Assembly: GCA_964500985.1 (NCBI GenBank)
Contig: CAZCRB010000002.1
Coordinates: 36-64,035, forward strand
DNA: 64,000 nt
Reading direction: 5' to 3'
From: an uncultured Eubacteriales bacterium
Lineage (GTDB): Bacteria; Actinomycetota; Coriobacteriia; Anaerosomatales; PHET01
The notes beneath the pieces were generated by a model, which was given only the letters and a program-made list of their open reading frames with translations, ran no database searches and was not told where the DNA came from. Shown piece by piece: positions 11,993 through 62,549 of this stretch. A program made the position numbers and the translations under genes. The number at the start of each line of letters is the position of its first letter. The stretch's first letter is position 1.

Positions 11993-12081
11993 AGGTCGAG
12001 TACACTTGCTGCCAACCGCCTGAAGCGGGCGGCACGCGGCGCAGCAGCGCCGCCGAGGGAGCGCATGGAGCGACGCACGAC

Positions 12082-26512: not shown

Positions 26513-26624
26513 TCCCTCTCCCCCTGTCAGAGCCAGCACGCCGACCCGAGCGGGTGACGAGCGCACTTCAGTCTATATAATAGTACGCAGAGCGTCGTTG
26601 CGAGCACCCCTCGGAGGTACGCAA

Positions 26625-42766: not shown

Positions 42767-43603
42767 CTAGGGAAGCTGCTTGACCACCTCGGTGATCGCG
42801 CTCTTGAGCGAGTCCGGCGAACCGCTCTTGACCGCCGCCATCTCCACGGCCACCATCACCGAGGCGTCCGTGAAGCCTACGACCGCGAAACGACGGCCAT
42901 CGGTACCGAAGTACACGTCGTGCCCGTTGACCTTGAAGGTCGCGGCGTCCTTGGGATAGCGCTGCTTGACCTGACTGGTCAGCGCCTTCTGCGCATCCGC
43001 GCCGGTCCGGAACTGCTCCGCCGAGATCACGAGCTGGACGACATCGGCGTTGCCGGCCGGCAGGTACTGACGCGTGACGGACAAGGCATCGTTGGCTGCC
43101 TTTCGCGCGGTGTAGCCCGTGATCGCATCGGGAACCCACGCCGCCAACGCACCATTGGGCGTGACCCCCGGATCCGGCGTGGACGTGGGATTCTTGGTCC
43201 CACCCGAGCCCGACGACCCCTTGTCGGATGTCGGCGACTTGCCGGCGTTGATCGCGTCGAGCTGGGATGCGGCGCTCTTGAAGCCGGCGTCCCCGGCGAC
43301 AACCGCGGCGAGCTTCTCTTTGGCGGTGGTCAGATCGCCCGCCGCGAGCGCGCTCTGTGCCTGTGCATAGAGGGCCTCGAGCTTGCGATGCTTGTCGCAC
43401 ACGATCGTCTTCTCCTTGACGCGGTACTTGGCCGCGTCCTTCGAAGGTACCTCGATGGTGCGCACGCTGTCGGAGACCTCGTGCCCGTAGGTGCACATGA
43501 CGCGCTCGCCGGTCTGAACCTCGACTTTGCGCTGACACCCGGCGAGCGAACCCGCGCTCAGCGCGAGAACGAGTGCGAGCACCGCGAGCAGTGGTCTTCT
43601 CAT
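42767..43603 (-). CDS. Lipoprotein, paralog of 29280..30074
   Basis: Lipobox LAGC after ATG 43603 (ATGA overlap with the upstream gene); C-terminal YFGTDGRRFAVVGF. Confidence 0.8.
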   Translation of the reverse strand: MRRPLLAVLALVLALSAGSLAGCQRKVEVQTGERVMCTYGHEVSDSVRTIEVPSKDAAKYRVKEKTIVCDKHRKLEALYAQAQSALAAGDLTTAKEKLAAVVAGDAGFKSAASQLDAINAGKSPTSDKGSSGSGGTKNPTSTPDPGVTPNGALAAWVPDAITGYTARKAANDALSVTRQYLPAGNADVVQLVISAEQFRTGADAQKALTSQVKQRYPKDAATFKVNGHDVYFGTDGRRFAVVGFTDASVMVAVEMAAVKSGSPDSLKSAITEVVKQLP

Positions 43604-45045
43604 CCCTGGTCCTTCCGCGGCCCGCGCGCGAGCAGCGCGAGCGCAATCGAGAACACCGCGGCGGCCGCACCGACCACGCACGACACGAGTGCGACGGGCG
43701 CGGCCACGGGTTCGAGAACAAGAGCAGCATACTCCGTGCCGTAAGCCTGCTGAACCTCGGCCGGCACAAACGAACTCCACGTCTGAAGCGTGACGGCAGT
43801 GAGCATCGGGTACGCGGCAGCGCACGCCAACGACGCGATTCCCGCCGAGACGACCGCGCCGGTCGAGCGCTCAGGCAGCGCGAGGGCAGCGGTCAGCGCA
43901 AGCGCGCACGCTGCGAAGACCAGCCATCCGCCCGCCGACGCGTACCCCGGCTGCAGCCACGTTCCGCTGAAGAACGCCTCGCCGGTCCCCCGCCCCTCGG
44001 CTGTGGCGCGGATCGCCGGCAGGAACAGGGCCACAGACGAGCCGACGAAGGCCACGGACGCGATGGCGATGGCGATGGCTGCAAGGTTGCGTCGGCCACG
44101 GCCGATCTTGTCGACTGACCGGGATGGCGCCTGCGCGAACCAGACCGCCGCCGCGGAGGCGAGCACCGCCGCAGCTCCGGACAACGCGCCGGCCCACGAA
44201 ACGGGATCGGGACCGAAAGACGCCGTCGCCTTCTCCAGCAGGGTCAGCGCGCTGACCGCGACCGGAGCGACGAGCAGGGCCGTTGAGGCGCGCGCTACAC
44301 CCTGCGCGCCGACGGACCGGACCCACCCCATGGCGAACACCGCGACCGCCAACCCCAGCGCGATGAGTCCTGGCCAGGCGCGCTCAAGGGACGTGGACTG
44401 CCCTGCGACCGCAGGGAGCGCCCAGAGCAGTGCCGGAACCGCCGCGCCGATGACCGCCAGAGCGACGGTGCGACGTGCGCCGATTCTGAGCGCCACCACC
44501 CGCAGAGAGATCGACGCGACCGCAAACGCCGCACCCGCGGCGAGCATGACCAGCTCGGGCACTGGGAACTTGATGAAGGGCGAGAACGAACTCGGGCGCT
44601 CCCAATTGGCGAGCAGCGCCGCTGAGCCCGCCAGTGCGCCGACGGCACCCGCAATCCCCGAGAGTGCCGTGCGAGGCTTGTGGGCGAAGAACGCCAGCGC
44701 CACGCACAGAGCGCCCCACGCCACCGTGGTGAAGAACAGGACCTCGGAGCCGGACGGCGCATCGCTGGACCGCTGGGCAAGGGCGATGAGGGGGGCGGCC
44801 CAGAACGCGGTGGCGCCCGCCACTACGGCGAGGACGAGCTCGGAACGGCTTTGCGCCCAGAGCGACCGCATCGGCACGAGGCCCTCAGCGATCAGGACCA
44901 CGACCAGAGCCACTCCCAGAGACGCCCCCAGTATCAGGGCGTCCGGAAGACCTTCCATGAGGACCGTCGTGATGACGAATGTCGCCGCCGCCCCGACGAG
45001 GGACGAAGCGATTGCCAGAAGGTGTTTGGGGGCGAATCGGGCCAC
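43600..45045 (-). CDS. Polytopic membrane protein, EamA/DMT-like with C-terminal extension
   Basis: About 13-14 hydrophobic segments; GVARASTALLVAPV DMT-like motif. Confidence 0.65.
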   Translation of the reverse strand: MARFAPKHLLAIASSLVGAAATFVITTVLMEGLPDALILGASLGVALVVVLIAEGLVPMRSLWAQSRSELVLAVVAGATAFWAAPLIALAQRSSDAPSGSEVLFFTTVAWGALCVALAFFAHKPRTALSGIAGAVGALAGSAALLANWERPSSFSPFIKFPVPELVMLAAGAAFAVASISLRVVALRIGARRTVALAVIGAAVPALLWALPAVAGQSTSLERAWPGLIALGLAVAVFAMGWVRSVGAQGVARASTALLVAPVAVSALTLLEKATASFGPDPVSWAGALSGAAAVLASAAAVWFAQAPSRSVDKIGRGRRNLAAIAIAIASVAFVGSSVALFLPAIRATAEGRGTGEAFFSGTWLQPGYASAGGWLVFAACALALTAALALPERSTGAVVSAGIASLACAAAYPMLTAVTLQTWSSFVPAEVQQAYGTEYAALVLEPVAAPVALVSCVVGAAAAVFSIALALLARGPRKDQG

Positions 45046-45141: not shown

Positions 45142-46446
45142 CTACTTGTTGTGGCAGGACTCGCACACGCCCCGGTTGTCCAGGCGCAACAGCGCGCTGG
45201 GGCTGGCCGGGAACTGGTTGCGGGCGACGCCGTCAGTGTCGACGACGAGGGTGCCCGTGGCCGCGTAGCCCGTCATCGCTGCCGCAGTACCGTGGGCACG
45301 GTGGCAGGTCAGGCACTCGATCCAGTCACTGTCCGTCTTGGCGGGTGCGCCGACGGTCGAGGACTCGTTGAGCGAGTTGGCAAGCGGGATCGGCAGCGCA
45401 CCGATCACCATGGACGACTTGTCAGGACCGTTGTAGGTGCTGAGCTCGACGTTCATGGGGTGGCGGTGGCGCAGACGGTAGTTGCCGCCGTCGCCAGCGT
45501 CGTACATGGTCGCGGAGGCCGCGTACGTAGTGCCATCGGAGCGCGTGATCACGCGAACCGGCTGCAGGTACGTGCTGTGGCACCCGGTGCACCAACCGCT
45601 CATGCCCTTGGTCGGGTCCTCGACGAGGTTGCCTGCGGCAGCCTGCTTCATGTCGTAGCCCTTGGCGTAGCGCGGCGTGGTGTAGTCAGGCTGGTAGCTC
45701 GGGTAGGCCGTGTGCAGGCGGAAGCCGCCGGCGGGCCAGCCGCGCTCAGTCGACGAGACGAAGCCGTCGGGATCCGGGTTCACCGAGCTGTTGGTGTTGT
45801 CGTAACCACCCACGCGGTTGCCGTTGACCATCGACTTCAGGATGCGGTAGTTGGCGCTGCCGTGCGGGTCGTGGCAGGTCGCACAGTCCATCTTGACTGC
45901 GGTCGACTCACCCTTGTCGCGCGGCTTGCCGTTGGTCGGATCGGTACCAGGCGAACCATCAGTGGTCGCGTCGGTGGCCGACTTGCCGTAGTAGCCACCG
46001 CCGTACGCACCCCACGACGCACCCTGGTACATGTGCACCGAGGAGACCGGCACGGTGACCGTGGCCCCGAGCGAGGTGTCGTACTTCTGCATGGTGCTGA
46101 AACCGCCGCCGTTGAGGACACCGTTCTGGACACCGTAGAGCGTGCCCTCGTAGATGCCGTTCTCGACGTTGGTGTCGGCGCCCTGCGCGCTGCCGTCGTG
46201 GCAGGCGTAGCAGAACTGGTACATCTCGGTCGCGGTGCTCACGAGCAGTGCGCTGTGGTCGTTCGCGCCAGCGTCCTGCCACGTGATCGAGCTGACGGAG
46301 GTGTGCGCCCGGTGACAACCGGCACATGCGTCGGTATCGGCCACGTAGTTGCCGTGGATCGCGAAGTTGGCGTTCGCGGCGACAGGGACCATGAGCGCCA
46401 CGAGGGCGGCCAGGGCGAATGCGAGTGCGAATCTCTTGGTAGTCAT
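45142..46446 (-). CDS. Secreted OmcS-like hexaheme cytochrome c (formate dehydrogenase module)
   Basis: Signal peptide; 6 CxxCH in 434 aa; HGN..CAGCHRAH, CHDPHG..YRIL, MSGWCTGCH, RHP, CLTCHRAH; C-terminal CESCHNK. Confidence 0.82.
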   Translation of the reverse strand: MTTKRFALAFALAALVALMVPVAANANFAIHGNYVADTDACAGCHRAHTSVSSITWQDAGANDHSALLVSTATEMYQFCYACHDGSAQGADTNVENGIYEGTLYGVQNGVLNGGGFSTMQKYDTSLGATVTVPVSSVHMYQGASWGAYGGGYYGKSATDATTDGSPGTDPTNGKPRDKGESTAVKMDCATCHDPHGSANYRILKSMVNGNRVGGYDNTNSSVNPDPDGFVSSTERGWPAGGFRLHTAYPSYQPDYTTPRYAKGYDMKQAAAGNLVEDPTKGMSGWCTGCHSTYLQPVRVITRSDGTTYAASATMYDAGDGGNYRLRHRHPMNVELSTYNGPDKSSMVIGALPIPLANSLNESSTVGAPAKTDSDWIECLTCHRAHGTAAAMTGYAATGTLVVDTDGVARNQFPASPSALLRLDNRGVCESCHNK

Positions 46447-46449
46447 GCC

Positions 46450-47388
46450 CTACACCTCCCCACCGGTCAGCGCTTCGGACTCGTTCTTGGTCCGGCGGGC
46501 GGAAAGCGCCGCAAGACCGCCGACGACGAGCGTCGGCAGGAGAAGCTTAGCACCAGTGCCCGACAGCATGCTCGACGCCATCGGAGCGACGTGATCCTCG
46601 ATGAACGGATCAGCCTTGGGCGGCGCGAGCAGGAAGTTCTTGCTCGCCCAGAACATCGAACCGCTACCGATCCAGTTCTTGGTGCCGGCGGCGGGACCCG
46701 AGGTGAGGGTGTAGCCGTTGGCCGGATCCTCGAGGTACTTGATGATGTTGTCGCGGGCGTCCCACTTCATCGCCTTGGCCGGGCAGCTCGACACGCACGC
46801 CGGCTCATGAGCGAGCTCGGGCACGATCGGCACCGGCAGCGCGCCGGTGCTCAGAGTGATGCTGCTGACCCAGTTGCCCGAGGCGTCCTTCACGGCACGC
46901 GTGGGCAGGGCGGTCGCGGGATCGACCACGCCATCGGCGCCGGCGCGACCGTTGCACAGGGTGCACTTGTTCATCTTGACGTCGGTGGTGTCCTCGTAAG
47001 CGACGCCGACCTTGGGATAGCCGCCGCGCTGACAGCCGAACTCACACGGCTTGGGACCCGGGCCCACTTTGCAGACGTTGGGCTTGCACAGCGCCTTGTC
47101 GACGCTGACCGCACCGGTTGCCTCTTTCTTCATGGCACCGAGCGGGCAGGCCTTGACGCAGGGCGGGTCGTAACAGTGCCAGCAGGTGTAGCGCATGAAC
47201 GCGCCCATATCCGAACGCTTGAGGCTCTTGATCGCCAGCCGCTGACGCGGGTTGACGACGGAGCGCTGCGGGATCACCTGGGCGATGTTGTCGGGGTTCT
47301 TGAGACCCCACTCGCGCTTACAGGCGATGACACAGCCGTTGCAGCGCATGCACTTATCGACATCCTGGAATACTGCCATCACAGTCAT
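46450..47388 (-). CDS. fdhB: Formate dehydrogenase iron-sulfur (beta) subunit with C-terminal TM
   Basis: CMRCNGCVIAC, CWHCYDPPCVKACP and KCTLC..PACVSSCP motifs; C-terminal hydrophobic helix as in FdnH. Confidence 0.85.
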   Translation of the reverse strand: MTVMAVFQDVDKCMRCNGCVIACKREWGLKNPDNIAQVIPQRSVVNPRQRLAIKSLKRSDMGAFMRYTCWHCYDPPCVKACPLGAMKKEATGAVSVDKALCKPNVCKVGPGPKPCEFGCQRGGYPKVGVAYEDTTDVKMNKCTLCNGRAGADGVVDPATALPTRAVKDASGNWVSSITLSTGALPVPIVPELAHEPACVSSCPAKAMKWDARDNIIKYLEDPANGYTLTSGPAAGTKNWIGSGSMFWASKNFLLAPPKADPFIEDHVAPMASSMLSGTGAKLLLPTLVVGGLAALSARRTKNESEALTGGEV

Positions 47389-47401: not shown

Positions 47402-50400
47402 CTACATCTTCTCGAGTCGGCAGAGACAGGCCTTGAACTCAGGGATCGTCGTGTTCGCGTCCATCGCGTCGATGGTCAGGTCGTTCGCCCGCGAACCGGT
47501 CGACAGACCCTGCTCGCCCCAGTGCCACGGAATTGCCACGACACCCTGGGCCACACGCTGGTTGGACTGGATTCCCACGCCGACACGGGCGACGAAGCCC
47601 TTGCCGTAGTTGTCGAGCGCGTTGACGACGCCCTGGGCGTTGGTGTTGCCGTCGGTGCGGGCGGTGACGACCTTGACGTAGTCGCCATCCGCGATGCCGA
47701 GCAGGCGTGCGTCGACGTTGTTGAGCTCGATCCACGGCTCCGGCTCGGCCTCGACGTTCCACCAGTTGTTACGGGTGATGGGGCCGCCCTGGAAGTGCTC
47801 GACGCACCGGATGGTGGTCAGCACCAGCGGGTACTTGCTCGGCTTACCGATGGTCGTGCCGTCGTAGATCAGGTTCAGAGGACCGGCAGCCTGGATAGCG
47901 GTGCTATCGGCGCTGTTGTAGCCCCAGACCAGATCGCCGAGGTCATCGGCGCGCGGAGTCTCGTACGGCTCGGTGTGCGCCGGGAAGCGACCGGGCTCGA
48001 CGTGGATCGCCGGAGCGGTCCCGTTTGCGAGATACGGCTTGTCGGCGAGCACGTGCGAAGTCGGCGCAAGGATCGTGCGGTACCAACGCGAGTAGTTGTA
48101 GATCGTCGTGCCGGTGGGAGCCCACGCGCTCTGGCCCTTCGGGGAGAAGAGGCGCACGCACGAGTCCGGACCCATGAAGAAGTCCGACTGGTCACCGACG
48201 ACTTCGGCGTTGTTGTACAGCACGCGGCGGTTGACGAGCCACGAGTAGCCCCACTTGTGGGAAGCGAGGGTGCCGTACGGATCCTGGCGGTCACGGCTCT
48301 TGGAGCGGTTCGAGACTTCCCAGGTGCTGTAGGCGCCGTAGAGGCGACCCATGCCCTTGGCGGTGTCGTAGCCCTCCGTGTAGATCCAGATCGTACCGCC
48401 GGCAGAGACGCTGCTCGTGTACTCGCGGAACACCATCTCAGCGACGAACTCGGAGCCCTGGACCTTGGTTGAGGTCGCGGGGTTGAGCGCGGCGTAGGTG
48501 GTGCCGGCGCCGGTCCACGCACCAGGCGTGGCGTAGTCGATCGTCAGGCCGGTCGTGTCGCTGCCTGCCGCGGTGAACGCAACCGCGCCACCGGGAGTCC
48601 AACCGTACGGCGTGCCGTAGAGGTTGGCGTAGGCGGCCTTGGAAGCCCAGCCCTGGACGGACTCGATGTGAGCGAAGCAGTCAGCGTCGTTGAGCGCCTT
48701 GGCGAACCGGAGCAAGAGCTCGTTGTCGTCCTTGCTGTTGCCCTTGGGGTCAACGGCCTTGTAGCGCCACTGCAGGGTACGACCGGAGTTCGTGGCCGCG
48801 CCCGCCTTCTCGACGTGGGCCGCCGACGGGATCAGGTACGTGACACCCGTGCACTTGCGGGACACCGCAGCGGTCTCGTTCATGAACATGTCGACGCAGA
48901 CGAGCGTGTCGAGGTTGTAGAGCCCCTCGCGGACCTTCGCCTGGTTCGGCTCGGTGACGGCGGGGTTCTGTCCCCACACGACGAGCGACTGGATGCGGGT
49001 CGCGTCGGTGTGCGTCATGTACCTGAACATCTTGATGTGGTTGAAGCCGTTGCCCTTGGGCCACAACGAGTACGCCTTGTCCACGATGGCGCGCCGTGCG
49101 GCGAGCGTGGTGGCGCTGGTCGCAGCGGAGTATCCGCCGAACCACTTGAGCGTCATGTTGTAGAACCCGCGCTGTTGCAGCTGCATGGCGCCCGTGTTGT
49201 AGGCGTCGTCGTAGCTGTTGTCCATCTTGGAACGCACGGTGCCGCTGAAGTCAGTGGTCCCGGTGGTTCCGGACAGAGGCAGGCCCCACAGCCCGTCCAT
49301 GTACTTGCCGAACGCCTTGTTGGTGTCCGTACCGTCCACGGCCGTGACCTGGGTGCCCGGGTTGCCCGAGTAGCCGGGGATGTTGCCGTAGAGCAGGCCC
49401 ATGTCCGTCGAACCCTGGACATTGTGGATGCCGCGCAGCGCGTTGATGCCGCCGCCGGCGCGTCCCGTGTTGCCCATCATCGACTGCAGGTTGGCCATTG
49501 CCTTGACGTTCTGCGCACCGTAGGTGTGCTGCGTCAGACCCATGGCGTACAGGATCGTCGTGGCGCGGTAGCCGGCCTGCGGTGCCTGGTCGGTATCGAC
49601 CGTGTAGGTGACGAGAACCTTGTCGCCTGCGTTGATGCCGCCCGCGACGGCGACGCGCTTGAGCGTGCCGAGCGAACGCGAGTTGGTACCGGCGACCACG
49701 GTGTAATGCGTACCGGCCGTGTAGGTGGTCAGACCATCAAGGCTCTTGACCGAGGCAACGGACAGGTTCCAGCCCCACATCGGCACCGCGTCAGGAACGC
49801 CGGCGGTGTCGGTCAGGCGCACCACGCGGTCGGTGAACGTGACGTTCGACGACACGGAGGAGCAGCGGCTGTTCTGGATGATCGCGTCACCGACGAGCGC
49901 GATGTCGGCGACCGTGCAGCCGCAGATGTCGGCAACGACGGTGTCACTGTAGGCGGCAAGGTGCTGCTTCATGCGCGAGAACACCGTGCCGGCGGCGTCA
50001 CACGCGGCGGCCTTCTTGGGGAAGTTCGAGATCAGCAGGTTGTTGGTCTCGGTGCCCAAGGGGGTTCCGCCGGTGGTGGTGACGGTACCGCGATCGTAGT
50101 CCGTGCCGTTGAGCATGAACCGCGCGTCGGTGTACTTGGAGCTGCCCGCCACGGTGGCGACCTGCGTGCTCGCGTGCGTTGCGTCGCCGTCCGTGAAGAA
50201 CGTGCCGTTGCCGCTCTGGTTCAGGTACGCCCAGTACTCGGTCTTCGTGGCGGCGGGGATCTCGGTGCCGTCAGCGAAGTACGTCGTCTGGTCGGTCCGC
50301 ATCTTCTCGATGATGTAGGCCATCACGCCGTTGGCCAACGCGATGTCGGTTCCGGGACGGATGCGGACGTAGTCATCGGCCTGCAGCGCGGTGCGCGTCT

Positions 50401-51283
50401 TGCGGGGGTCGATGACGATGAAGCGCGCAGGCTTCTTGTTGGCACGGTCACCCGAGAAGTACTGCTTGGGGAAGCGTGCGCGGTTGACGTGCGCCATGCA
50501 CGCCGGGTGGTTCTCAGTGGGGTTGGCACCCCACGCGATAACGAGCGAAGCATTGGCGATGTCCGCCCAATGGTTCGTCATCGCGCCTCGTCCGAATGCG
50601 GCGGCCAGACCGGCCACCGTGGACGAGTGTCATATACGGGCCTGATGCTCGACGTTGCTGGTACCGAAGTTCGCGATGATCTTGCGGTACAGGTAGTTCG
50701 ACTCGTTGTTCATGTGCGAACTACCGAGGAACGCAACGGTCTTGCTGTTGTACTTCATCGAGCCCGGCACCCAGTTGGTGGCGTCGGCGTCACGCGCCGT
50801 CTTGAGGCGAGTGGCGATATCGGCCAGCGCGGTGTCGATCGGCACGGCGGACCAAGGGCCATCGCCGGTGCGCTTGTACGCGATCGGGTTGCTGGTGCCG
50901 TCGGCCGCGAACACGTTGTCGACCGGGTGCGTGCCCGTGAACGCGCCGATACGGCGCGGGTTGTTCACGAGCTGGAGCGCCCCTGCGCCCTTGGCACACA
51001 GGCCGCCCGAGTTCATGGGCGACTCGAAGTCACCGTAGACGTCTACAACGACCGTCGGGTCGGATTTCTTGACGACGACGCGCTGCCCGCAGCTTGCGGA
51101 GCAGTACGGGCACGTCGTCGTGGTGATCTGGTAGTCAGCTGAGTTCTCGTACGCGGACGCCTTTTCAGGATCGTACGCGAACTCGAGGCCGCAACCGACC
51201 ACCGCGGTGGCAGCTGCGGCGGTTTTGATGAAGTCACGCCTGGTGACCCCACCAACCGGCTGCCCGGTGTCCCTAGTTGCCAT
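47402..51283 (-). CDS. fdhA: Selenocysteine-containing Mo/W formate dehydrogenase alpha subunit (Tat-exported, 1293 aa, Sec218)
   Basis: ORFs 50630..51283 and 47402..50617 are in frame across TGA 50632-50630 in EHQARI-U-HSSTVAGLAAAFGRGAMTNHW. Tat motif TRRDF; CPYC..C..LCAKG; ALRGIHNVQG; EFKACLCRLEK. Confidence 0.95.
50587..50627 (-). other. SECIS element of fdhA
   Basis: CTCGTCC-A-CGGTGGCC-GGTCT-GGCCGCCG-CATTC-GGACGAG directly after the UGA; GGUCU loop as in the fdhF-type SECIS. Confidence 0.88.
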
Positions 51284-51842: not shown

Positions 51843-53402
51843 TTACGAGGGGGACGGCTTGGCCCCTTTACCGCTGCCGAGGTACATCGACTTGAACTCC
51901 TCGACGTCGACCACGCGCACGTCGGCGAGCACGCCGATCCTGCGCAGGTCGCGGTCCTCGGTGCCGAGTGCGCGTGCGCGCTGGGCCATGGAGACCACGA
52001 TAGCCTCACGCTGGGCCACATCGAGACGATCGACGAGCGCACGGGCGTCGGACTCGGAGTACTGCTCGAACTCTATGAGCTCGGTCAGCGTGACACCGTC
52101 GACCACCTTGCCCTCGTAGGCCGCGAGGTCCTCTTCCGGTGCCACCAGGCGCAGTCTGCGGCGATCAGCGACCGCGCGGATCTCGCCGGCTGCGGCGAGT
52201 GAGTCGACGAAGTCGGGCGTCACGACGATGCGGACACGGCGGCGCAGGAGCAGCAGCGGGAGGAGGAGCAACGGCGACAGGCACAGCAGCCAGCCGAGCG
52301 GCGTGGTGGGGGCGGCGACCGCAGGCGGCTGCGCGACCGGCCAGCCCCAGACCTGGACCTGGTTGTTGTCGCGGTCGGTCACGTAGATGCGCGCCCCGCT
52401 CACGGCGACGTCGTTGGGATAGTTGAACTGCCCGGGGCCGAAGCCCTGGCTGCCGAACTGCGTGAGCCGCTTGCCGTCGAGGTCGTAGACGTCGACGGTG
52501 TGCGCGACGGCATCGACCGCGTAGAGACGCTGCTTGGCATCGATGGCGATACCGCGCGGTATGCCCGAGGTGTCGACGAAGCGCTTGAACTCGCCCTTCT
52601 CGTCGAACACCTGGACCCGGCGGTTGTCACCGTCGGAGACGAAGATCTCCCCGCGTCGCGAGACGGCCAGGCCGTTGGGGAAGTAGAAGCCGCCGGGAGA
52701 CTCCTCGGCAGACTTGACCTGTACGGTCTTGCCGACGGTCGCCGTGCGGCTGCCGTCTTCACTGAAGATCATCAGCTGGTGCTTGCTGGTGTTGTCCACG
52801 TCGGTGACGCGCAGCGCGCCGGCGCTGTCGAACGTGAGTGCGAGCGGCGTCCAGTCGAGCGTCTCGTTCTTGGGCTCGAACATCTTCTTGAACGCGCCCT
52901 GCGTGCTGAAGATGACGATGTTGCGAAGTCTGCGGTCGGTGACCCACACCTCGTCGCCCTTGACGGCGAGATGCACGGGGCTCTGCAGGTTGCCGTCGGC
53001 CGTCTTGGCGAACGAGCGCACGTAGCGGCCGTTACGGGTGAACGCGCTGATGCGGTTGTGGCCGAAGTCCGCGACGAACACGGTCTGCCCGTCGGTGGAC
53101 ACGCCCACCCCGATCGGGCGATCGAGCGCGCTTGCTCCCTGCCCGGTGATCGAGAAGAGGTACTGCGGCGGGTCGATCATCGCCTCAGGTGCGGCTATGT
53201 CGACGCTGGGCAGTCTGCGGTTCTGGATGAAGTAGTAGGTGGAGTACGCGAGCAACGCCAGGAGCACGACGAGCAGCGACAGCAGCAGGATGCGCTTGCG
53301 CACCTCACGCTTGGTCAACTTCGGCCTCCCCTGTGTGCGGGGAGCCTCCGGCTGCGGCGGAACCTGTGGTGCGTTCGTGGCGGACATCTCGTCAGGAGCC
53401 AT
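51843..53402 (-). CDS. NHL-repeat beta-propeller protein with two TM anchors and a PIN-like tail (copy 2)
   Basis: Same architecture as 40042..41559, including GWLLCLSPLLLLPLLLL and SESDARAL..TEDRDLRR. Confidence 0.85.
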   Translation of the reverse strand: MAPDEMSATNAPQVPPQPEAPRTQGRPKLTKREVRKRILLLSLLVVLLALLAYSTYYFIQNRRLPSVDIAAPEAMIDPPQYLFSITGQGASALDRPIGVGVSTDGQTVFVADFGHNRISAFTRNGRYVRSFAKTADGNLQSPVHLAVKGDEVWVTDRRLRNIVIFSTQGAFKKMFEPKNETLDWTPLALTFDSAGALRVTDVDNTSKHQLMIFSEDGSRTATVGKTVQVKSAEESPGGFYFPNGLAVSRRGEIFVSDGDNRRVQVFDEKGEFKRFVDTSGIPRGIAIDAKQRLYAVDAVAHTVDVYDLDGKRLTQFGSQGFGPGQFNYPNDVAVSGARIYVTDRDNNQVQVWGWPVAQPPAVAAPTTPLGWLLCLSPLLLLPLLLLRRRVRIVVTPDFVDSLAAAGEIRAVADRRRLRLVAPEEDLAAYEGKVVDGVTLTELIEFEQYSESDARALVDRLDVAQREAIVVSMAQRARALGTEDRDLRRIGVLADVRVVDVEEFKSMYLGSGKGAKPSPS

Positions 53403-54396
53403 CGGTCACCCGTTTCAGTCCCGCTTCTGCGTCCTTGTTGCCCGGGTCCGCCGCCAACGCGCGACGGTACGCGAGCGCTGCCGCGTTCAGGTTCTTGCTC
53501 TGTTCGTAGAGCTGGCCCACCGCGAGCAGCGCAGGCGCCGACGCCGGATCGAGCGCTGCGGCGACGCGAGCCTCTACCAGCGCGGCCTTGGGGTCACTCG
53601 CTTTGAGGCTCTGCGCCTTGGCCAGACGCGCGCTGACGGTTCCCAGCTTCGCGAGCGCCTCAGCCGGCTTCTCGGCCTTGGGCGCCGAGTCCGCGGAGGT
53701 GCGGAAGTGCTCGGCTGCGCCCGCGACGTCACCGTCGGCGAGAAGCACGTTGCCGTAGTCGTAGTTGGCCTCGGGCATCTTGGGGTCGAACAGCAGCGTC
53801 GCCTCGAGCTCCTCGCGGTACTCGTCTTCGCTGCCGAGCTCGCGGAAGCAGACGGCGAGCGCGTAGTGGGAGTCGGACGCGTCACGGCGGATGCGGATGG
53901 CCTCCTTGAAGTTGCGCGCGGCCTCCTCGTACTCCTTCTGCTCCATCAACGCGGTGCCCAGATAGAAGTACGCGGTCTCCAGCTCGGCGTTCTGCCGGGT
54001 CATGTCCGTGCCCTGGAGCAGGTCGACGACCTTCTGGAAGTAGTTCTCACCGACCTTGTACTGCTTCTGCTTCAGCGCGATGAACCCGAGACCGGACAGC
54101 GCCGGCGCGTAGTCCTTGCGCACCTTGAGGATCTGCTCGTACTGCGTGGCGGCCTCGCGGTCGCGCCCGGCGACCGAGTAGGTCTGGGCGAGGCGCATAC
54201 GCGTGTCGATATCGTTGGGATTGGCGCGTACCTGCGCGATGAGCCCGCCGATGGCTCGAGCCGCCGGCGTGGAAGCCTCCACCGTGCGATTGCTCTGCCA
54301 TACCGAGTAGCCGAGAAAGACGCCGAGCCCCAGAACGAGGACGGCGACGACCGCGATGGCGGCATCGAGAGGACGTACCGACTTCAGGTCGGGCAC
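53392..54396 (-). CDS. Membrane-anchored TPR protein (copy 2)
   Basis: N-terminal TM; TPR repeats (LLFDPKMPEANYDYG); AAGGAG RBS before GTG 54396. Confidence 0.88.
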   Translation of the reverse strand: MPDLKSVRPLDAAIAVVAVLVLGLGVFLGYSVWQSNRTVEASTPAARAIGGLIAQVRANPNDIDTRMRLAQTYSVAGRDREAATQYEQILKVRKDYAPALSGLGFIALKQKQYKVGENYFQKVVDLLQGTDMTRQNAELETAYFYLGTALMEQKEYEEAARNFKEAIRIRRDASDSHYALAVCFRELGSEDEYREELEATLLFDPKMPEANYDYGNVLLADGDVAGAAEHFRTSADSAPKAEKPAEALAKLGTVSARLAKAQSLKASDPKAALVEARVAAALDPASAPALLAVGQLYEQSKNLNAAALAYRRALAADPGNKDAEAGLKRVTDGS

Positions 54397-54466
54397 GCGA
54401 AGCACTCCTTACCCTGTGAGCGCCGGGCCTGCCGGGGCCCGTGCGGCGCGCATCGTTTCGAGATCG

Positions 54467-54550: not shown

Positions 54551-56167
54551 TCAGATGTTCAGATCCGAGTGGCACTGGATGCACAGCTCGGCTCCCGGAT
54601 ACGGGGCGATCACCTGGTTCTGGTAGTCGACCGCTCCGTGGCAGCCGTAGCACAAGCGAACATCGTGCCCCGCGTCGGGAAGCCCACCGGTACTGGTCTG
54701 ACCTTCATGCTGCTTGGACGCCCCTGACGTGGTGAACCCGATGTGGCAGTCGTCGCAGGTGTAGGGCTTGCCCTTCTTCTTCGCGACATTGAAATGCACC
54801 GCGTGCTCGGCGAAGCCCTTGTTCTTGAGCTTGGTGGGCTGATTGGTCTTCATCTGCGGATGGCACGGCGTGCAGTTCTCCTTGACGAGCTCGGCTCGCG
54901 ACACCGACGCGTGGTGGCACTTCTGACACGAATCGCGATTCGTGTGGCACACATTGCAGTCCTCGTTGGGAACGCCCGGCGCGGGTTTGTGGTTCTCGAT
55001 CCAGCCGACCGGGTGCGGCATGACCGTCTTGTGGCAGCGCTTGCACGACTTGTCCGTGTGGCACGAACCGCAGGCGCCCTTGCCGTCGAGGAACTTGCCC
55101 CCGTGCTTGGCGCGCCAGTCAGCGCGCTTGTGGTCGGTGGGGATGACCGCGACGCCCGGCGCATTGGGGCTCGTCTTCTTGCCGGTATGGCAGCCGACAC
55201 AGAAGGCCGAAGGGTGACACATGGCGCAGTAGGCGGGGTCCTGGTTTGCGATGACCTTGTGCGTGCCCTTGATGAACCGCTTGGTGTGGTTCGCGGGCGT
55301 CAGGTCGAACTCCTTGGGGTGACACGCTTCGCACTTCTCGGTGGCCACCTGGCCCTGGCCGTTGTGCTGCAGGCCGTGACAGCGGTAGCACGACTGCATG
55401 TCGGGAACGACGACCCGCTCCTCTTTGTGCGCGAAGGTCGGGTGGCACGCCTCGCACGAGTAGTTGCGCTGCAGGTGCGTCGCGTGCGCGAAGATCAGGC
55501 GGCCGGGCGTGATCGCGTCGAGGTCCGGGTGGCAGTAGACGCACTGTGACATCGTGACCGGGCCGTCAGGATAGATCAGGATCGACGGGCCCTTGGGGCG
55601 CTCGCCCACGGTGGGATGATAGATGTTGGGGATCGCCGGGACCGGCGGCACCGACTTGGCGTGGCACTCGTTGCAGTCCTTGGGCGCGTCGTGACACATC
55701 ATGCAGCGGTTCACGCCACCGCGCTTGGCGGCATCCGCGTGCGGGACCTTGGCCCAGTCCTTCGAGTGGGTGGTCGGACGCAGCTCGAACGACGGCGTGT
55801 GGCAGTCTTCGCACTTGCCGGTCGCGAGCTCCCCCTGGGGACCGTGCTGGACGCCGTGGCAGGCGAAGCACACGTCCATGGGAACGCGCTCGGTCACCCC
55901 GTCGCGGTGGGGCATGCGCGAATGGCAGCCGTCGCAACTGATGAGCAGGTGGTTACCGTGGCTGAACGTCAGCCCGGGGACGTTGACGTCGCCCAGATCG
56001 AGATGGCACGGCGCACACTGCGAAGGCGAGATGGGCGCGCCGGTGTCGATGGGCTGATCGGTCGTGGCCGCATCGGTGAAAGCCGCGGGCGCAAGCAGGA
56101 AGGCGGCCGCGAGCACTATCGCGGCCACCCCCCAGAGCACTATCCGTATGTCGTGGCGGCGAATCAC
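54551..56167 (-). CDS. 20-heme cytochrome c
   Basis: N-terminal signal/TM; 20 CxxCH; internal duplication of a six-heme unit. Confidence 0.92.
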   Translation of the reverse strand: MIRRHDIRIVLWGVAAIVLAAAFLLAPAAFTDAATTDQPIDTGAPISPSQCAPCHLDLGDVNVPGLTFSHGNHLLISCDGCHSRMPHRDGVTERVPMDVCFACHGVQHGPQGELATGKCEDCHTPSFELRPTTHSKDWAKVPHADAAKRGGVNRCMMCHDAPKDCNECHAKSVPPVPAIPNIYHPTVGERPKGPSILIYPDGPVTMSQCVYCHPDLDAITPGRLIFAHATHLQRNYSCEACHPTFAHKEERVVVPDMQSCYRCHGLQHNGQGQVATEKCEACHPKEFDLTPANHTKRFIKGTHKVIANQDPAYCAMCHPSAFCVGCHTGKKTSPNAPGVAVIPTDHKRADWRAKHGGKFLDGKGACGSCHTDKSCKRCHKTVMPHPVGWIENHKPAPGVPNEDCNVCHTNRDSCQKCHHASVSRAELVKENCTPCHPQMKTNQPTKLKNKGFAEHAVHFNVAKKKGKPYTCDDCHIGFTTSGASKQHEGQTSTGGLPDAGHDVRLCYGCHGAVDYQNQVIAPYPGAELCIQCHSDLNI

Positions 56168-56192
56168 GAAGTCTGCCGCAGCTCCTTTGTCG

Positions 56193-57488
56193 TCACTGAC
56201 CGCGTATGCGGTTGATCACCTGCATCAGCGGATTCTCCTCGGCGGCCGACTGCTTCTGGTGGATCAGAGCGGCCGCGTCCGCACCGAACTGCTCGTCCGA
56301 ACCGCTGTGGCAACCTTCCTGACCACAGGTGGTTCCGACGTTCTTCGCGTTGACCGAGGACTCGGGGTCGGCCGAGGGCAGGACCTCGTGGGCCTCGTGG
56401 CACTGCCAGCAGGCAGGAGCATCCGGCGCGCCGGCCTTGTAGGCCTTGCCGTGATAGTAGTCGTCGTAGGTGTCGTAGTCATCACCGTGCTGCTTGCAGC
56501 GTGCGCAGGTGCGATAGGCGGCCGAGTGCATCCGGGCCTTGGCGGCCTCGGTGTTCGACTTGTTGATGAAGTGGCCACCGTGGCACGAGGCACAGGTCGC
56601 GGCATCGAAGTTGCCCTCGTTGACCTGCTTGCCGTGGATCGACTTCTCCCACTCGGGCACCGGGGCAGACAGCGAGGTCTCCTCGGACGCGCGGTGGCAG
56701 TCAGCGCAGGCGTAGCCGGCGTTGACGTTCCACAGCGGGGTGCGCGAGGGCTTGTCGTCATAGCGGTAGTCCACGTGGCACTGCTGGCAGCTCAGGTCGC
56801 GGTGCGCCGAGAGCTCGAGACCCGAGACCTGGAACGACTTGCTGCCGCTCATGGACTGCTTGAGGAGCTGCGACTGCTCGTGGCAGCTCATGCAGCCGTC
56901 GCCCGCGTCGTAGTCCCAGCTCTTGGGCGCCCACTCCACGAGCTCGCGATCGTGGCAGTCGGTGCAGGTCTCAGGGGTGTGGCACATCGCGCACCGGGTG
57001 TTGAACGCCTCCTCGGCGGGCTTCACGTGCGGCTCGCCCTTCCACCCGAACGTGTGGAACGCGGGGCGCAGGCGCTCGCGCGGGGTGACGTGGCAGTCCT
57101 CGCACTTGCCCGTGGCGAGGATGCCCATGGAGCCGTGCCGCAGCCCGTGGCAGTCGAAGCAGCCCTTCATCGTGGGGCGCTCGGTACCCTCGGGACGGTG
57201 CGGGAAACGCGAGTGGCACGAGGAGCACTGCAGCACGATGTGGTTACCGTGGCTGAAGATCACCTCGGACGAGTAGTTCTTGGTCTTGGCGATGTTGCCG
57301 TGGCACGCGCGACACGTCTGCTCGACGACCGGGGCACCGAGGTCGATGACCACGCTGTTCCCACTGTCGAGCGGCGTCGATACGTCAGCCGCGAACGCGG
57401 CACCCGCCCCCAGAACGGCGAAGAACGCCGATGCGGCGAGCGCGAGGGCGAGCAGCCTGCCGGGGCGTGCTCGGAACCGAAGCGCCAT
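56193..57488 (-). CDS. Multiheme cytochrome c (11 CxxCH + 2 atypical)
   Basis: Signal peptide from ATG 57488; atypical CARCKQH and CGQEGCH motifs. Confidence 0.9.
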   Translation of the reverse strand: MALRFRARPGRLLALALAASAFFAVLGAGAAFAADVSTPLDSGNSVVIDLGAPVVEQTCRACHGNIAKTKNYSSEVIFSHGNHIVLQCSSCHSRFPHRPEGTERPTMKGCFDCHGLRHGSMGILATGKCEDCHVTPRERLRPAFHTFGWKGEPHVKPAEEAFNTRCAMCHTPETCTDCHDRELVEWAPKSWDYDAGDGCMSCHEQSQLLKQSMSGSKSFQVSGLELSAHRDLSCQQCHVDYRYDDKPSRTPLWNVNAGYACADCHRASEETSLSAPVPEWEKSIHGKQVNEGNFDAATCASCHGGHFINKSNTEAAKARMHSAAYRTCARCKQHGDDYDTYDDYYHGKAYKAGAPDAPACWQCHEAHEVLPSADPESSVNAKNVGTTCGQEGCHSGSDEQFGADAAALIHQKQSAAEENPLMQVINRIRGQ

Positions 57489-57538
57489 GTTGTCCCTTAC
57501 CTTTCGCGTTGGGGTCCCCGCGAAGCGCGGACCCATCC

Positions 57539-58465
57539 TTACCCCTGTCCGGTGATCCACGAGCCGATCTGCTGGACCGCTCCGCCGATGGCGTTTCTGG
57601 CGGCATCGATGGCCGACCAGAACGGAATCGATGCGTAGACGTCCTCTTTGCTGTGAACAAGCTGGCCGTACTCGACAAACGCCTCATCGGTGTTGATGTG
57701 GCACTTGTCCTCCATGCTGCACGTCTCGGGCAGCCTCACGGGGTTGACCATCGAGTTGCGGTTCTTGGCCGGCAGGATTTCGTGGGTGCCGTGGCAGTCC
57801 CAGCATGCCGGCGAATCGTAGGCGCCGCGCTGGTAGGCGGCGCCGTGGTAGTAGTCCATGTAGGTGGTCGCGAACTCCTCGTGGCACTGCCCGCAGACGT
57901 CGAGCGCCGAGGAGTGATAGACGGCCTGGGCCGCCGTATCCTCTTTGCTCGGGATCCCGTGGCCGCCGTGGCAGTCGCCGCACAGCGGCACGCGGGCGGG
58001 CTTGCCGGCCGCGACGCGCGCCGCGGCCGTGGCACTGGCGTCCTCGCCCGGCTTACCGGCCGGCGAGTGGGCACTCGAGGCGTAGGCCGAGAAGGCTTCG
58101 GCGTGGCAGTTCTTGCACGCCAGTTTGGCGACCGCACGCCAGTCCTCGCCGTTGACGACGTTGTCGTGCGGCGTCTTGTAGGCGAAGTCGATGTGGCAAC
58201 CGGTGCACGCGACGTCTTTGTGAGCCGACTCGTTGAGGATCTCGGTGTTCACATAGATCGACGTGGTCGAGTCAACGGTCGTCTTCACGAGGTTGGGATC
58301 GGAGTGGCAGACCGTGCAGCCCGACTTGCCCTCCGTGGGGAGCGTGAAGTCGAGGTTGTAGGTCTGGGTCGCGGGTACGGCCGGCTTGGCCGCCGCCCCC
58401 GCGACAGCGGGAACCGCAAGCAGGACCGCGAGGGCCGCGACTGCTATGAGGGTCCGAAAGCGCAC
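57539..58465 (-). CDS. Multiheme cytochrome c (6 CxxCH + 1 atypical), CbcL-heme-domain-like
   Basis: Signal peptide from GTG 58465; SAH..CTGCH, CGDCHGGH, YHG..ACWDCHGTH motifs. Confidence 0.88.
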   Translation of the reverse strand: MRFRTLIAVAALAVLLAVPAVAGAAAKPAVPATQTYNLDFTLPTEGKSGCTVCHSDPNLVKTTVDSTTSIYVNTEILNESAHKDVACTGCHIDFAYKTPHDNVVNGEDWRAVAKLACKNCHAEAFSAYASSAHSPAGKPGEDASATAAARVAAGKPARVPLCGDCHGGHGIPSKEDTAAQAVYHSSALDVCGQCHEEFATTYMDYYHGAAYQRGAYDSPACWDCHGTHEILPAKNRNSMVNPVRLPETCSMEDKCHINTDEAFVEYGQLVHSKEDVYASIPFWSAIDAARNAIGGAVQQIGSWITGQG

Positions 58466-58490
58466 GTGCGGGTCTCCGATGCCGGGTGTG

Positions 58491-59538: not shown

Positions 59539-59784
59539 TCACCGATCGGTGATCTCGGCACGCACGGCCACCGCGATCTGGGCGTTGGAAAGGTAGCGCT
59601 CGGCCCTCTCGGCGTCCGCTACCTCGACGCGCAACGCGATACCGCAGGTGGCAGAGACCGAGGCCGGGGCGGGGATGGGCACGACGTCGATTCCCATGTC
59701 GTCGAGAAGCGCCTCGGCATCGAGCGCGTCATGGGTGGACGCGAAGCCGTAGACGATGAAGGGCCGCTCGCCGGCGGCGCTCAC
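59539..59784 (-). CDS. DUF3343 family protein (putative Se/S carrier-like)
   Basis: FASTHDALDAE..VVPIPAP..SATCGIALR pattern. Confidence 0.8.
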   Translation of the reverse strand: MSAAGERPFIVYGFASTHDALDAEALLDDMGIDVVPIPAPASVSATCGIALRVEVADAERAERYLSNAQIAVAVRAEITDR

Positions 59785-61448: not shown

Positions 61449-61495
61449 GCCGCTCTCCCCTGGCCGGACCGGCGGCATCGGCCGCCGGCGCGTGT

Positions 61496-62547: not shown

Positions 62548-62549
62548 GC

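What the first reader, a model, noticed from the sequence alone, without database searches (positions are those of the whole stretch)
49590..49855. ~90-aa beta-rich domain inserted into the FDH catalytic subunit
Between the segments matching FdnG 'VV..ICG......V...' and 'TT.LYA.G.TQH', which are only about 10 residues apart in FdnG, there is an insert VTFTDRVVRL..SVKSLDGLTTYTAGTHYTVV..GTLKRVA..INAGDKVLVTYT. The Y..G.[DH]Y.V...G...R....I..G..V.V.Y pattern resembles Ig-like domains of phage tail and surface proteins. It helps make the subunit 1293 aa against about 1000 aa. It is a candidate attachment domain, paralleling the hydrogenase inserts.
Basis: partly seen in the sequence, partly recalled or inferred. 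Interest (0 to 1): 0.62.

Follow-up and report, generated by a model that had tools for sequence, protein, structure and literature searches.

The report
Phage-type Ig-like domain inside formate dehydrogenase
A surface loop of an exported, selenocysteine-containing formate dehydrogenase carries an ~86-residue all-beta domain whose relatives are the decorative Ig-like domains of phage tail proteins. Related enzymes have copies of the same domain in at least four other loops, so it looks like a mobile surface accessory and not part of the catalytic machinery.

Summary
It lies on the minus strand, at aa ~479-564 of a 1293-aa FdhA with a Tat signal and a selenocysteine (window 49592-49849; HMM envelope 49586-49864).

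- **Discrete insert.** Of the 120 nearest FdhA sequences (window protein plus 119 homologue clusters), 112 have a short loop here and 8 have the insert.
- **Independent fold.** AF2 gives pLDDT 89 and six beta strands.
- **Phage relatives.** A profile of the insert finds 439 proteins among 1.84 billion. Apart from a few FdhAs, these are almost all phage virion proteins: tail tube/major tail protein with Ig-like domain, tail sheath, baseplate J, portal. NCBIfam NF052337 (tail_tube_6XGR, phage YSD1) matches 17 of 18 FdhA copies.
- **Several insertion sites.** The same domain sits in at least four other loops of related FdhAs, with up to three copies per protein and a patchy distribution on the tree.
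- **Context is clade-wide.** The whole clade (Coriobacteriia/Actinomycetota MAGs) shares one cluster: cyt b, three multihaem cytochromes, TPR, NHL, FdhA, FdhB, a 6-haem cytochrome, a membrane protein and a lipoprotein. This holds with or without the insert, so cytochrome adjacency is not specific to the insert.
- **Hydrogenase inserts differ.** They are not this domain.

Best reading: a position-tolerant surface decoration for low-affinity adhesion or latching. Function is untested. The combination is new for a known enzyme and a known domain type.

The parts
49592..49849 (-). Inserted domain proper, FdhA aa ~479-564, relative to insert-less close relatives. About 86 aa, six beta strands.
   Evidence: Alignment with 119 homologue clusters. 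AF2 of aa 474-566 gives pLDDT 89.1, and the same strands appear in the context model. Profile hits to phage virion proteins.
49586..49864 (-). HMM envelope of the domain (aa 474-566), including the conserved junction residues CSS... and ...TDQ.
   Evidence: hmmsearch of the 8-copy and 25-copy profiles against the six-frame window: a single hit, E 1e-30 and 6.5e-21.
47402..51283 (-). Host gene fdhA. Tat-exported molybdo/tungstopterin formate dehydrogenase catalytic subunit, 1293 aa.
   Evidence: PDB phmmer hit to D. vulgaris FdhA at 4e-99. Pfam Molybdop_Fe4S4, Molybdopterin, Molydop_binding and TAT_signal.
50630..50632 (-). In-frame TGA read as selenocysteine (aa 218, HQARIUHSS).
   Evidence: Aligns with the Sec/Cys of the D. 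vulgaris FdhA active site. A hairpin follows directly downstream.
50579..50627 (-). Candidate SECIS hairpin immediately 3' of the UGA.
   Evidence: RNA fold dG -27.4 kcal/mol, z -2.07 against shuffles. Not tested further.
51185..51283 (-). Twin-arginine signal peptide (TRRDFIK...).
   Evidence: Pfam TAT_signal and alignment to the D. vulgaris FdhA signal.
46450..47388 (-). FdhB, a four-cluster ferredoxin subunit with a C-terminal TM helix.
   Evidence: Pfam Fer4_11 and Fer4_7. Hydrophobic C-terminus.
45142..46446 (-). Six-haem c-type cytochrome that always follows FdhB in the clade.
   Evidence: 6 CxxCH motifs, Pfam Paired_CXXCH_1. Conserved in the genome loci that extend past fdhB.
43600..45045 (-). 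Polytopic membrane protein (~12-15 TM), a conserved cluster member.
   Evidence: Hydropathy. Conserved in loci. No Pfam hit.
42767..43603 (-). Lipoprotein (~278 aa from M75, lipobox LAGC), a conserved cluster member.
   Evidence: Sequence. Conserved in loci.
51843..54405 (-). Membrane-anchored TPR protein (53392-54405) and NHL beta-propeller protein (51843-53402), directly upstream of fdhA.
   Evidence: Pfam. N-terminal TM helices. Conserved in loci.
54551..59345 (-). Cytochrome b (58491-59345) plus 6-, 11- and 20-haem cytochromes. This is the upstream part of the cluster.
   Evidence: Pfam and CxxCH counts. Present in most loci.

Best explanation
The insert is a copy of a mobile, promiscuous beta-sandwich ('Ig-like') decoration domain. 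Its main home is the exposed surface of phage virion proteins: tail tube, tail sheath, baseplate and portal. The closest characterised relative is the inserted domain 2 of the YSD1 tail-tube protein. Here the domain has been spliced into a variable loop of FdhA (surface exposure inferred, not measured). FdhA is the catalytic subunit of a Tat-exported formate dehydrogenase held on the outer face of the membrane by the TM helix of FdhB. The organism is probably a monoderm Coriobacteriia-type actinobacterium. The domain takes no part in catalysis or in the FeS/haem electron path.

It most likely works as a position-tolerant accessory module that makes weak contacts, either with cell-wall glycopolymers or with neighbouring proteins of the FDH-cytochrome assembly. 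Such contacts would retain, orient or stabilise the enzyme in the wall zone.

Shown: the fold, the homology, the multi-site and patchy distribution, and the context. Inferred: the exposure, the binding role and the partner.
For: **Discrete insertion, independent fold.** Conserved flanks. AF2 pLDDT 89.1 alone, and blocks of 66-91 (seven of nine at or above 80) with the same strands inside a 1059-aa model.

**Homology to phage virion domains.**
- A profile search of 1.84e9 proteins gives 439 hits. Of the best 150 only three are FdhAs.
- Of 130 others scanned, 95 match PHROG 807 'major tail protein with Ig-like domain' and 37 match tail sheath; others match portal, head decoration and fibre families. 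Further hits carry Baseplate_J and Phage-tail_3.
- The alignments cover the full domain.
- NCBIfam NF052337 tail_tube_6XGR matches 17 of 18 FdhA copies (best 9e-12; window copy 8e-5).
- Foldseek against BFVD gives TM 0.67-0.72 and 24-27% identity to phage structural proteins.
- YSD1 domain 2 is an inserted six-stranded Ig-like sandwich that latches neighbouring subunits (PMC7385642).

**Position tolerance.** The same family occurs at sites A (after aa 372; 11 proteins), B (8), C (after ~650; 2), ~760 (1) and D (~935-975; 2). P0009 has three copies, and its site-B copy is closest to its own site-A copy. Carriers are scattered on the FdhA tree.

**Retained and native.**
- The frame is intact and the fold motif is kept at 24-47% identity, while the core is 56-67% identical.
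- GC3 is 0.86 against 0.89±0.04 for the gene.

**Extracytoplasmic setting.** Tat signal, FdhB TM helix, and TM-anchored TPR and NHL partners.
Against: - No binding partner or ligand is identified.
- The position of the loop on the 3D enzyme was not measured, because the tools return no coordinates.
- Patchy presence among otherwise identical gene clusters also fits a dispensable or neutral passenger.
- The window copy's own hits to the phage families are weak (PHROG 807 E 0.009; NF052337 8e-5). The link rests on the family profile.
- PDB profile searches did not retrieve 6XGR itself.
- Foldseek against the PDB gave nothing below E 0.1.
- tblastn against isolate phages found nothing.
Confidence: 0.6

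Rival explanations
1. It is a specific docking domain that attaches FdhAB to a multihaem cytochrome or nanowire, or to the TPR/NHL scaffold encoded next door.
For: The gene sits in a dense cytochrome/TPR/NHL cluster. Ig-like domains often mediate protein-protein contacts. YSD1 domain 2 is a protein-protein latch.
Against: The partner genes are present in the 73 related loci (as far as each contig extends) whether or not FdhA has the domain. The domain sits in at least five different loops in different relatives, in 1-3 copies. That is hard to reconcile with a fixed docking geometry. None of the neighbouring proteins carries the domain.
Confidence: 0.15
2. It is a neutral or nearly neutral passenger. 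A phage-derived module was inserted by illegitimate recombination into a permissive loop and is tolerated without a function.
For: Patchy distribution with apparent losses (P0005 sits inside the carrier clade without it). The insert evolves faster than the core. The enzyme clade tolerates many other loop expansions.
Against: The frame is intact and the fold-defining motif is conserved across hosts whose cores have diverged to 56-67% identity. The domain has been fixed independently at several sites and duplicated within one gene. It is found only in FdhA, not in the neighbours. These points suggest at least weak selection.
Confidence: 0.2
3. It is an oligomerisation latch. As in the YSD1 tail tube, the domain wraps onto a neighbouring FdhA and promotes arrays or oligomers of the enzyme on the membrane surface.
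For: Homology to the family modelled on YSD1_22, whose inserted domain 2 performs this role.
Against: No evidence for FdhA oligomers here. The variable insertion sites would give different lattice geometries. The mapping of the NF052337 match onto domain 2 is inferred, not shown residue by residue.
Confidence: 0.05

Closest known systems
[quoted passage not shown]
   Same: A beta-sandwich of about 80 aa and six strands. It is itself an insertion into a loop of a host fold and is exposed on the outside. There is profile-level sequence homology: 17 of 18 FdhA copies hit NF052337 and 4 of 8 hit PHROG 807.
   Different: The host protein is a respiratory molybdoenzyme, not a virion protein. No ring of identical neighbours is known that it could latch. 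The residue-level mapping to domain 2 is inferred. PDB sequence and fold searches did not retrieve 6XGR.
Extra Ig-like domains of phage tail sheath proteins and other virion proteins (Evseev et al. 2022, PMC9230969; the 'Ig-like domains on phages' concept)
   Same: The same sequence family occurs as one or more inserted copies in tail sheath (PHROG 23), baseplate J, portal and head-decoration proteins. It is non-essential, exposed and horizontally exchanged. Proposed roles are weak carbohydrate adhesion or stabilisation.
   Different: There is no Pfam model for this family. It is not Big_1, Big_2, FN3 or I-set. The host here is cellular and enzymatic.
Periplasmic FdhAB of Desulfovibrio vulgaris (6SDR/9QM0) and FdnGHI of E. 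coli (1KQF)
   Same: The host enzyme shares the Tat signal, FS0 cluster domain, Sec-His active-site motif, conserved Arg (NALRG-HNVQG), MGD-binding domains, and an FdhB with four clusters and a TM tail.
   Different: About 280 residues longer, with the phage-type domain at aa 479-564 plus clade-wide expansions. The partners are multihaem c cytochromes, TPR and NHL proteins.
FDH within a multihaem-cytochrome cluster in Anaerosomatales (Parvivirga hydrogeniphila MCL4079376-90; PMC9686372)
   Same: Same lineage (Coriobacteriia/OPB41-type MAGs dominate the relatives). Same idea of a molybdopterin oxidoreductase embedded in a multihaem cluster.
   Different: That paper does not describe domain insertions in FdhA. 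The identity of the window organism is unknown.

Membership tests
Sec-containing periplasmic/extracytoplasmic formate dehydrogenase alpha subunit (FdhA/FdnG type) | Tat signal, N-terminal 4Fe-4S (FS0) domain, and molybdopterin and MGD-binding domains | tested here: met
   Pfam TAT_signal, Molybdop_Fe4S4, Molybdopterin and Molydop_binding. PDB hits at 4e-99 to 8e-85 to FdhA/FdnG.
Sec-containing periplasmic/extracytoplasmic formate dehydrogenase alpha subunit (FdhA/FdnG type) | Active-site Sec/Cys-His pair and the conserved Arg of the NALRG(H)xNVQG motif | tested here: met
   HQARI-U-HSS aligns with the D. vulgaris EHQARICHS. INALRGIHNVQGSTD aligns with VNALRGESNVQGSTD.
Sec-containing periplasmic/extracytoplasmic formate dehydrogenase alpha subunit (FdhA/FdnG type) | Formate oxidation / CO2 reduction activity | not testable with these tools
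   Needs an enzyme assay.
Phage virion Ig-like decoration domain of the YSD1 domain-2 / PHROG 807 type | Significant profile-level sequence similarity to family members | tested here: met
   439 hits at E<=1e-3, down to 1e-17 for tail sheath proteins. Full-domain alignments. NF052337 matches 17 of 18 copies. The window copy alone is weak (8e-5; PHROG 807 0.009).
Phage virion Ig-like decoration domain of the YSD1 domain-2 / PHROG 807 type | Small six-stranded beta-sandwich fold | tested here: inconclusive
   AF2 gives six strands with pLDDT 89. BFVD matches have TM 0.67-0.72. Against the PDB nothing falls below E 0.1, the best TM is 0.61 (phi812 baseplate), and 6XGR is not retrieved.
Phage virion Ig-like decoration domain of the YSD1 domain-2 / PHROG 807 type | Occurs as an insertion or appendage on the exposed face of a larger host fold, often in several copies | tested here: met
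   It is inserted in loops of FdhA at 5 sites, with 1-3 copies. Surface exposure itself is inferred.
Classical phage/bacterial Ig-like Pfam families (Big_1, Big_2, FN3, I-set) | Match to the Pfam model | tested here: not met
   There is no such hit. Only sub-threshold DUF7927, SWM_repeat and DUF4815 appear.
   No ligand or partner can be inferred. The context does not co-vary with the insert.

The most novel reading that the evidence does not exclude
An extracytoplasmic respiratory enzyme clade in monoderm Actinomycetota has repeatedly captured a phage virion decoration domain into different surface loops and keeps it under selection. The domain would act as a wall-polymer-binding or lattice-forming module that organises surface arrays of FDH feeding multihaem electron conduits. 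That would be domestication of a phage adhesion module for the architecture of extracellular electron transfer.
Probability: 0.2. Interest if true: 0.7.

Novelty: new variant of a known kind. Interest (0 to 1): 0.5.

Why it matters
The enzyme (FdhAB) and the domain type (phage Ig-like decoration) are both known. Their combination appears undescribed: I found no paper on it and no Pfam model for the domain.

- **Evolution.** Recurrent insertion of one phage module at five or more loops of one enzyme is a clean natural example of domain capture from the virosphere into core energy metabolism. It also maps permissive loops of a biotechnologically important CO2-reducing enzyme.
- **Engineering.** Those loops could be useful sites for tags or immobilisation handles.
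- **Physiology.** If the domain binds wall polymers or partners, it bears on how Gram-positive bacteria hold large redox enzymes at the cell surface next to multihaem conduits.
- **If it is neutral.** The finding is then an evolutionary curiosity.

Tried and rejected
1. The + strand translation of the given coordinates is nonsense. The feature is on the minus strand.
2. Same domain in the hydrogenase subunits or anywhere else in the window: no hit with the 8-copy or the 25-copy HMM. The hydrogenase inserts are compositionally different.
3. Insert correlated with cytochrome adjacency: rejected. The cluster is clade-wide.
4. Single ancestral insertion at this site: not supported. Carriers are scattered, and P0009's site-B copy resembles its own site-A copy most.
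5. Recent foreign acquisition: rejected. GC3 is native.
6. Pfam assignment of the domain: none.
7. PDB sequence-profile searches for a solved relative gave only noise (SprA, Spa2) and a weak 8rk3 tail protein. 6XGR was not retrieved.
8. Foldseek against the PDB: no match below E 0.1.
9. tblastn of two copies against 50,697 isolate phage genomes: no match.
10. The full-length context model was poor (pLDDT 59), and the tools give no coordinates. The position of the loop relative to FdhB or the substrate funnel could not be determined.
11. A literature search for FdhA domain boundaries was unproductive.
12. Cluster look-up of the best non-FDH hits gave no taxonomy.
Full report
**1. What is at the coordinates**

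The interval 49590-49855 makes no sense on the + strand. On the minus strand it is codons 477-565 of a long reading frame, 51283..47402. Reading the in-frame TGA at codon 218 as selenocysteine gives a 1293-aa protein. It has:
- a twin-arginine signal (TRRDFIK);
- an FS0 4Fe-4S domain;
- molybdopterin and MGD-binding domains (Pfam);
- best solved relatives in the Sec-containing FdhA of Desulfovibrio vulgaris (E 4e-99), D. gigas FDH and E. coli FdnG.

The active-site HQARI-U-HSS and the NALRG-HNVQG arginine motif align with those enzymes. A stable hairpin follows the UGA (dG -27.4 kcal/mol, z -2.07), as expected for a bacterial SECIS.

**2. Is it an insert?**

HMMER's alignment to D. vulgaris FdhA breaks between query 328 and 572. 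I aligned the protein with the 119 nearest homologue clusters from a 5.8-billion-protein search. Most of them are post-Sec fragments, because gene callers stop at TGA.

In this set of 120 sequences (the window protein plus 119 homologue clusters) the stretch between VVADICG and TTxLYAMG is 32-53 residues in 112 proteins and 99-121 in eight: the window protein, P0002, P0004, P0009, P0070, P0081, P0103 and P0112. The flanks (...NSRCSS and D(Q/P)xxxxYRATT) are conserved in all. The feature is therefore a discrete insertion of ~75-86 residues that replaces a short loop. In the window it is aa ~479-564 (49849..49592).

It accounts for only about a third of the ~280 extra residues relative to D. vulgaris FdhA. 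The remainder is clade-wide expansion at aa 329-448, 649-758 and 865-1008.

**3. Does it fold on its own?**

AlphaFold2 on aa 474-566 with an 8-sequence alignment gave mean pLDDT 89.1, pTM 0.78 and six beta strands. In a 1059-aa context model that was poor overall (pLDDT 59), the insert blocks still scored 66-91 (seven of the nine at or above 80) with the same strand pattern.

**4. What is the domain?**

- Pfam has no model for it. Only sub-threshold DUF7927, SWM_repeat and DUF4815 appear.
- A profile of the eight copies, searched against 1.84 billion representative proteins, found 439 proteins at E<=1e-3 and 23 at <=1e-10. Many carry 2-17 tandem copies.
- Only three of the best 150 are FdhAs.
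- Of 130 others scanned against PHROGs, 95 match PHROG 807 'major tail protein with Ig-like domain' and 37 match tail sheath (PHROG 23). Others match portal, head decoration, tail fibre and virion structural proteins.
- Pfam on the long hits shows Phage_sheath_1, Baseplate_J, Sheath_initiator and Phage-tail_3.
- The HMMER alignments cover the whole domain. They share the motif vtDEsvtLtGttA..L....v.V.s.dG.ttY..gtDYtvdy..GtitR...g.I..G.tV.V.Yty.
- NCBIfam NF052337, 'tail_tube_6XGR', matches 17 of 18 FdhA copies (best 9e-12; the window copy 8e-5; profile positions 114-169 of 245).

6XGR is the tail tube of the flagellotropic phage YSD1. Its protein YSD1_22 has an inserted 'domain 2', a sandwich of two three-stranded sheets (a DE-variant Ig-like fold). 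That domain wraps onto the neighbouring subunit and latches the hexameric ring (PMC7385642; PMC8718954). That the NF052337 match falls in domain 2 is my inference from the profile positions and the six-strand model. I could not show it residue by residue.

Foldseek of the insert model against predicted viral structures gave TM 0.67-0.72, rmsd 2.3-3.1 Å and 24-27% identity to phage structural proteins.

The weaker results were:
- Against the PDB nothing fell below E 0.1. The best TM was 0.61, to a phi812 baseplate protein.
- PDB sequence-profile searches did not return 6XGR.
- tblastn against isolate phage genomes found nothing.

The homology is thus solid at family-profile level and modest for the window copy alone (PHROG 807 E 0.009).

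**5. The unexpected part: one domain, many loops**

Searching the domain profile back against the FdhA relatives showed the same family at other positions:

| Site | Position (window numbering) | Proteins carrying it |
|---|---|---|
| A | after aa ~372 | 11 |
| B | aa 474-566 (the window's site) | 8 |
| C | after ~650 | 2, plus three genome loci |
| C2 | ~760 | 1 |
| D | ~935-975 | 2 |

Twenty-one of the 120 sequences carry at least one copy. P0009 has three (A, B and D) that are 53-58% identical to each other. Its site-B copy is closest to its own site-A copy, not to other site-B copies.

On a neighbour-joining tree of the conserved core, site-B carriers form one small clade: window, P0002, P0004 and P0070, with P0005 lacking the insert. 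There are also four isolated tips, and site-A carriers are equally scattered. Site B has therefore been filled more than once. The domain spreads within and between these genes, and it is also lost.

The insert evolves faster than the core (24-47% versus 56-67% identity). It keeps its frame and its fold motif. Its GC3 (0.86) is that of the gene (0.89±0.04), so it is an old resident.

**6. Context**

All genes are on the minus strand, in this order:
- cytochrome b (58491-59345);
- 6-, 11- and 20-haem cytochromes;
- a TM-anchored TPR protein;
- a TM-anchored NHL propeller;
- FdhA;
- FdhB with a C-terminal TM helix;
- a 6-haem cytochrome;
- a polytopic membrane protein;
- a lipoprotein.

A parallel module follows: TPR, NHL, NiFe hydrogenase small and large subunits, and a paralogous 6-haem cytochrome (38% identical).

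A scan of one genome per GTDB species returned 73 loci. Apart from one divergent Altarchaeum sequence and one untitled 'metagenome' chromosome record, they come from MAGs titled Coriobacteriia, Coriobacteriales, Anaerosomatales, Actinomycetes or Actinomycetota (one titled Aeromicrobium sp.), or from ENA MAGs carrying the label 'uncultured Eubacteriales', which I take to be generic. They share this cluster almost gene for gene, whether or not FdhA has the domain. Within those loci the domain occurs only inside FdhA, never in a neighbour.

A paper on cultivated Anaerosomatales already noted a molybdopterin oxidoreductase/FDH inside a multihaem cluster in the Fe(III)-reducing, formate- and H2-oxidising Parvivirga hydrogeniphila (PMC9686372). 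Work on Dethiobacter alkaliphilus (a different, non-actinobacterial lineage; no Gram type is given in what I read) suggested that NHL and TPR proteins help assemble surface cytochrome complexes (PMC10376724).

The cytochrome association is therefore a clade property.

**7. Hydrogenase 'parallel'**

HydS has an ~89-aa insertion (aa 74-162) relative to NiFeSe small subunits. HydL has several expansions. They are G/A/S/T-rich and match neither domain profile. The parallel is only that both enzymes are enlarged.

**8. Mechanism**

Shown:
- an independently folded domain of the phage decoration family;
- inserted in a variable loop of an exported FdhA that is membrane-tethered through FdhB;
- the same family tolerated in at least five loops and in multiple copies;
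- sporadic across otherwise identical operons.

Inferred: because position and copy number vary while the electron-transfer partners do not, the domain is unlikely to be a geometry-specific docking element or part of catalysis. The most economical reading is the one proposed for its phage relatives: weak adhesion to surface carbohydrates, or latching and stabilising contacts with neighbours. Transferred to an enzyme that sits in the wall zone of a monoderm cell, that role would be retention or stabilisation. I give this about 0.6.

Rivals:

| Explanation | Confidence |
|---|---|
| Tolerated neutral passenger | ~0.2 |
| Specific cytochrome or scaffold docking | ~0.15 |
| Oligomerisation latch | ~0.05 |

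A subfamily-specific P(M/L)W-x-(W/Y) turn between strands 2 and 3 occurs in the window, P0002, P0004 and P0070. It is a candidate contact site but is untested.

**9. Novelty and verdict**

The enzyme and the domain type are known. The domain family has an NCBIfam and a PHROG footprint and a solved relative. I found no report of it, or of any Ig-like insertion, in formate dehydrogenases.

I rate this a new variant of a known kind with moderate interest (0.5). The functional and contextual claims are only partly supported.

Noticed in passing
window 33150-59345 (minus strand): There are two parallel modules with the same grammar. Each has a TM-anchored TPR protein, a TM-anchored NHL propeller, a two-subunit exported redox enzyme (FdhAB or NiFe HydSL) and a paralogous 6-haem cytochrome (38% identical). 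The FDH module continues with a polytopic membrane protein and a lipoprotein. An upstream cyt b plus 6-, 11- and 20-haem cytochromes precede it. The FDH module is conserved across ~70 Coriobacteriia-type MAG loci.
   Followed up: partly
window 39221-39487 (HydS aa 74-162) and HydL aa 88-115, 168-198, 302-407, 447-580 (gene 36080-38236): The NiFe hydrogenase small subunit (481 aa) has an ~89-aa G/A/S/T-rich insertion right after the proximal-cluster CxGC motif. The large subunit (718 aa) has four expansions relative to NiFeSe hydrogenases. None matches the phage-type domain. Their fold was not examined.
   Followed up: partly
related proteins P0084, P0088, P0097, P0111 (site A ~370-387 aa); P0012, P0036, P0085, P0093, P0095, P0104, P0118, P0120 (site C ~190-205 aa); locus L026: Other members of the FdhA clade carry much larger loop expansions (+90 to +260 aa) that the phage-domain profile does not match and Pfam does not name. 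The clade's loops appear to be general hot spots for insertions.
   Followed up: no
window 50579-50627 (minus strand): A GC-rich hairpin starts 8 nt after the in-frame UGA of fdhA (dG -27.4 kcal/mol, z -2.07). It is a candidate bacterial SECIS element.
   Followed up: partly
window 42767-43825 (minus strand): The mechanical ORF of 352 aa probably starts at M75 (43603). From there it reads MRRPLLAVLALVLALSAGSLAGC, a lipoprotein signal with a lipobox. The upstream 74 codons are Arg/Cys-rich and overlap the preceding membrane-protein gene.
   Followed up: no
FdhA aa 501-506 (window ~49766-49783), and P0002, P0004, P0070: The window's subfamily of site-B copies has a conserved P(M/L)W-x-(W/Y) aromatic turn where other copies have LTGTTAxxL. 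It may be a contact or ligand site.
   Followed up: no
PDB 6h3i (SprA) residues ~699-726; TIGR04189: The T9SS translocon SprA/Sov shows weak matches to the same DY.VDY..G motif (E 0.14 in the PDB search; two FdhA copies hit TIGR04189 at 7e-5). This hints that the domain family also occurs in a cellular outer-membrane machine.
   Followed up: no
window 59781-63641 (minus strand): Molybdenum-cofactor genes (MoaA-like radical SAM, a MOSC domain protein, MogA/MoaB-like) and a class-V aminotransferase/cysteine desulfurase-like gene sit directly upstream of the cytochrome-FDH cluster. The same arrangement is seen in locus L002.
   Followed up: no
window 4275-26566: This region holds a further 723-aa multihaem cytochrome (4275-6446), a chemotaxis set (CheA 20358-22595, CheR 25667-26566, two MCPs), a GAF-GGDEF cyclase (17713-19212), a PilB/T2SSE-type ATPase (14093-15196) and a class A PBP (10001-12091).
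   Followed up: no
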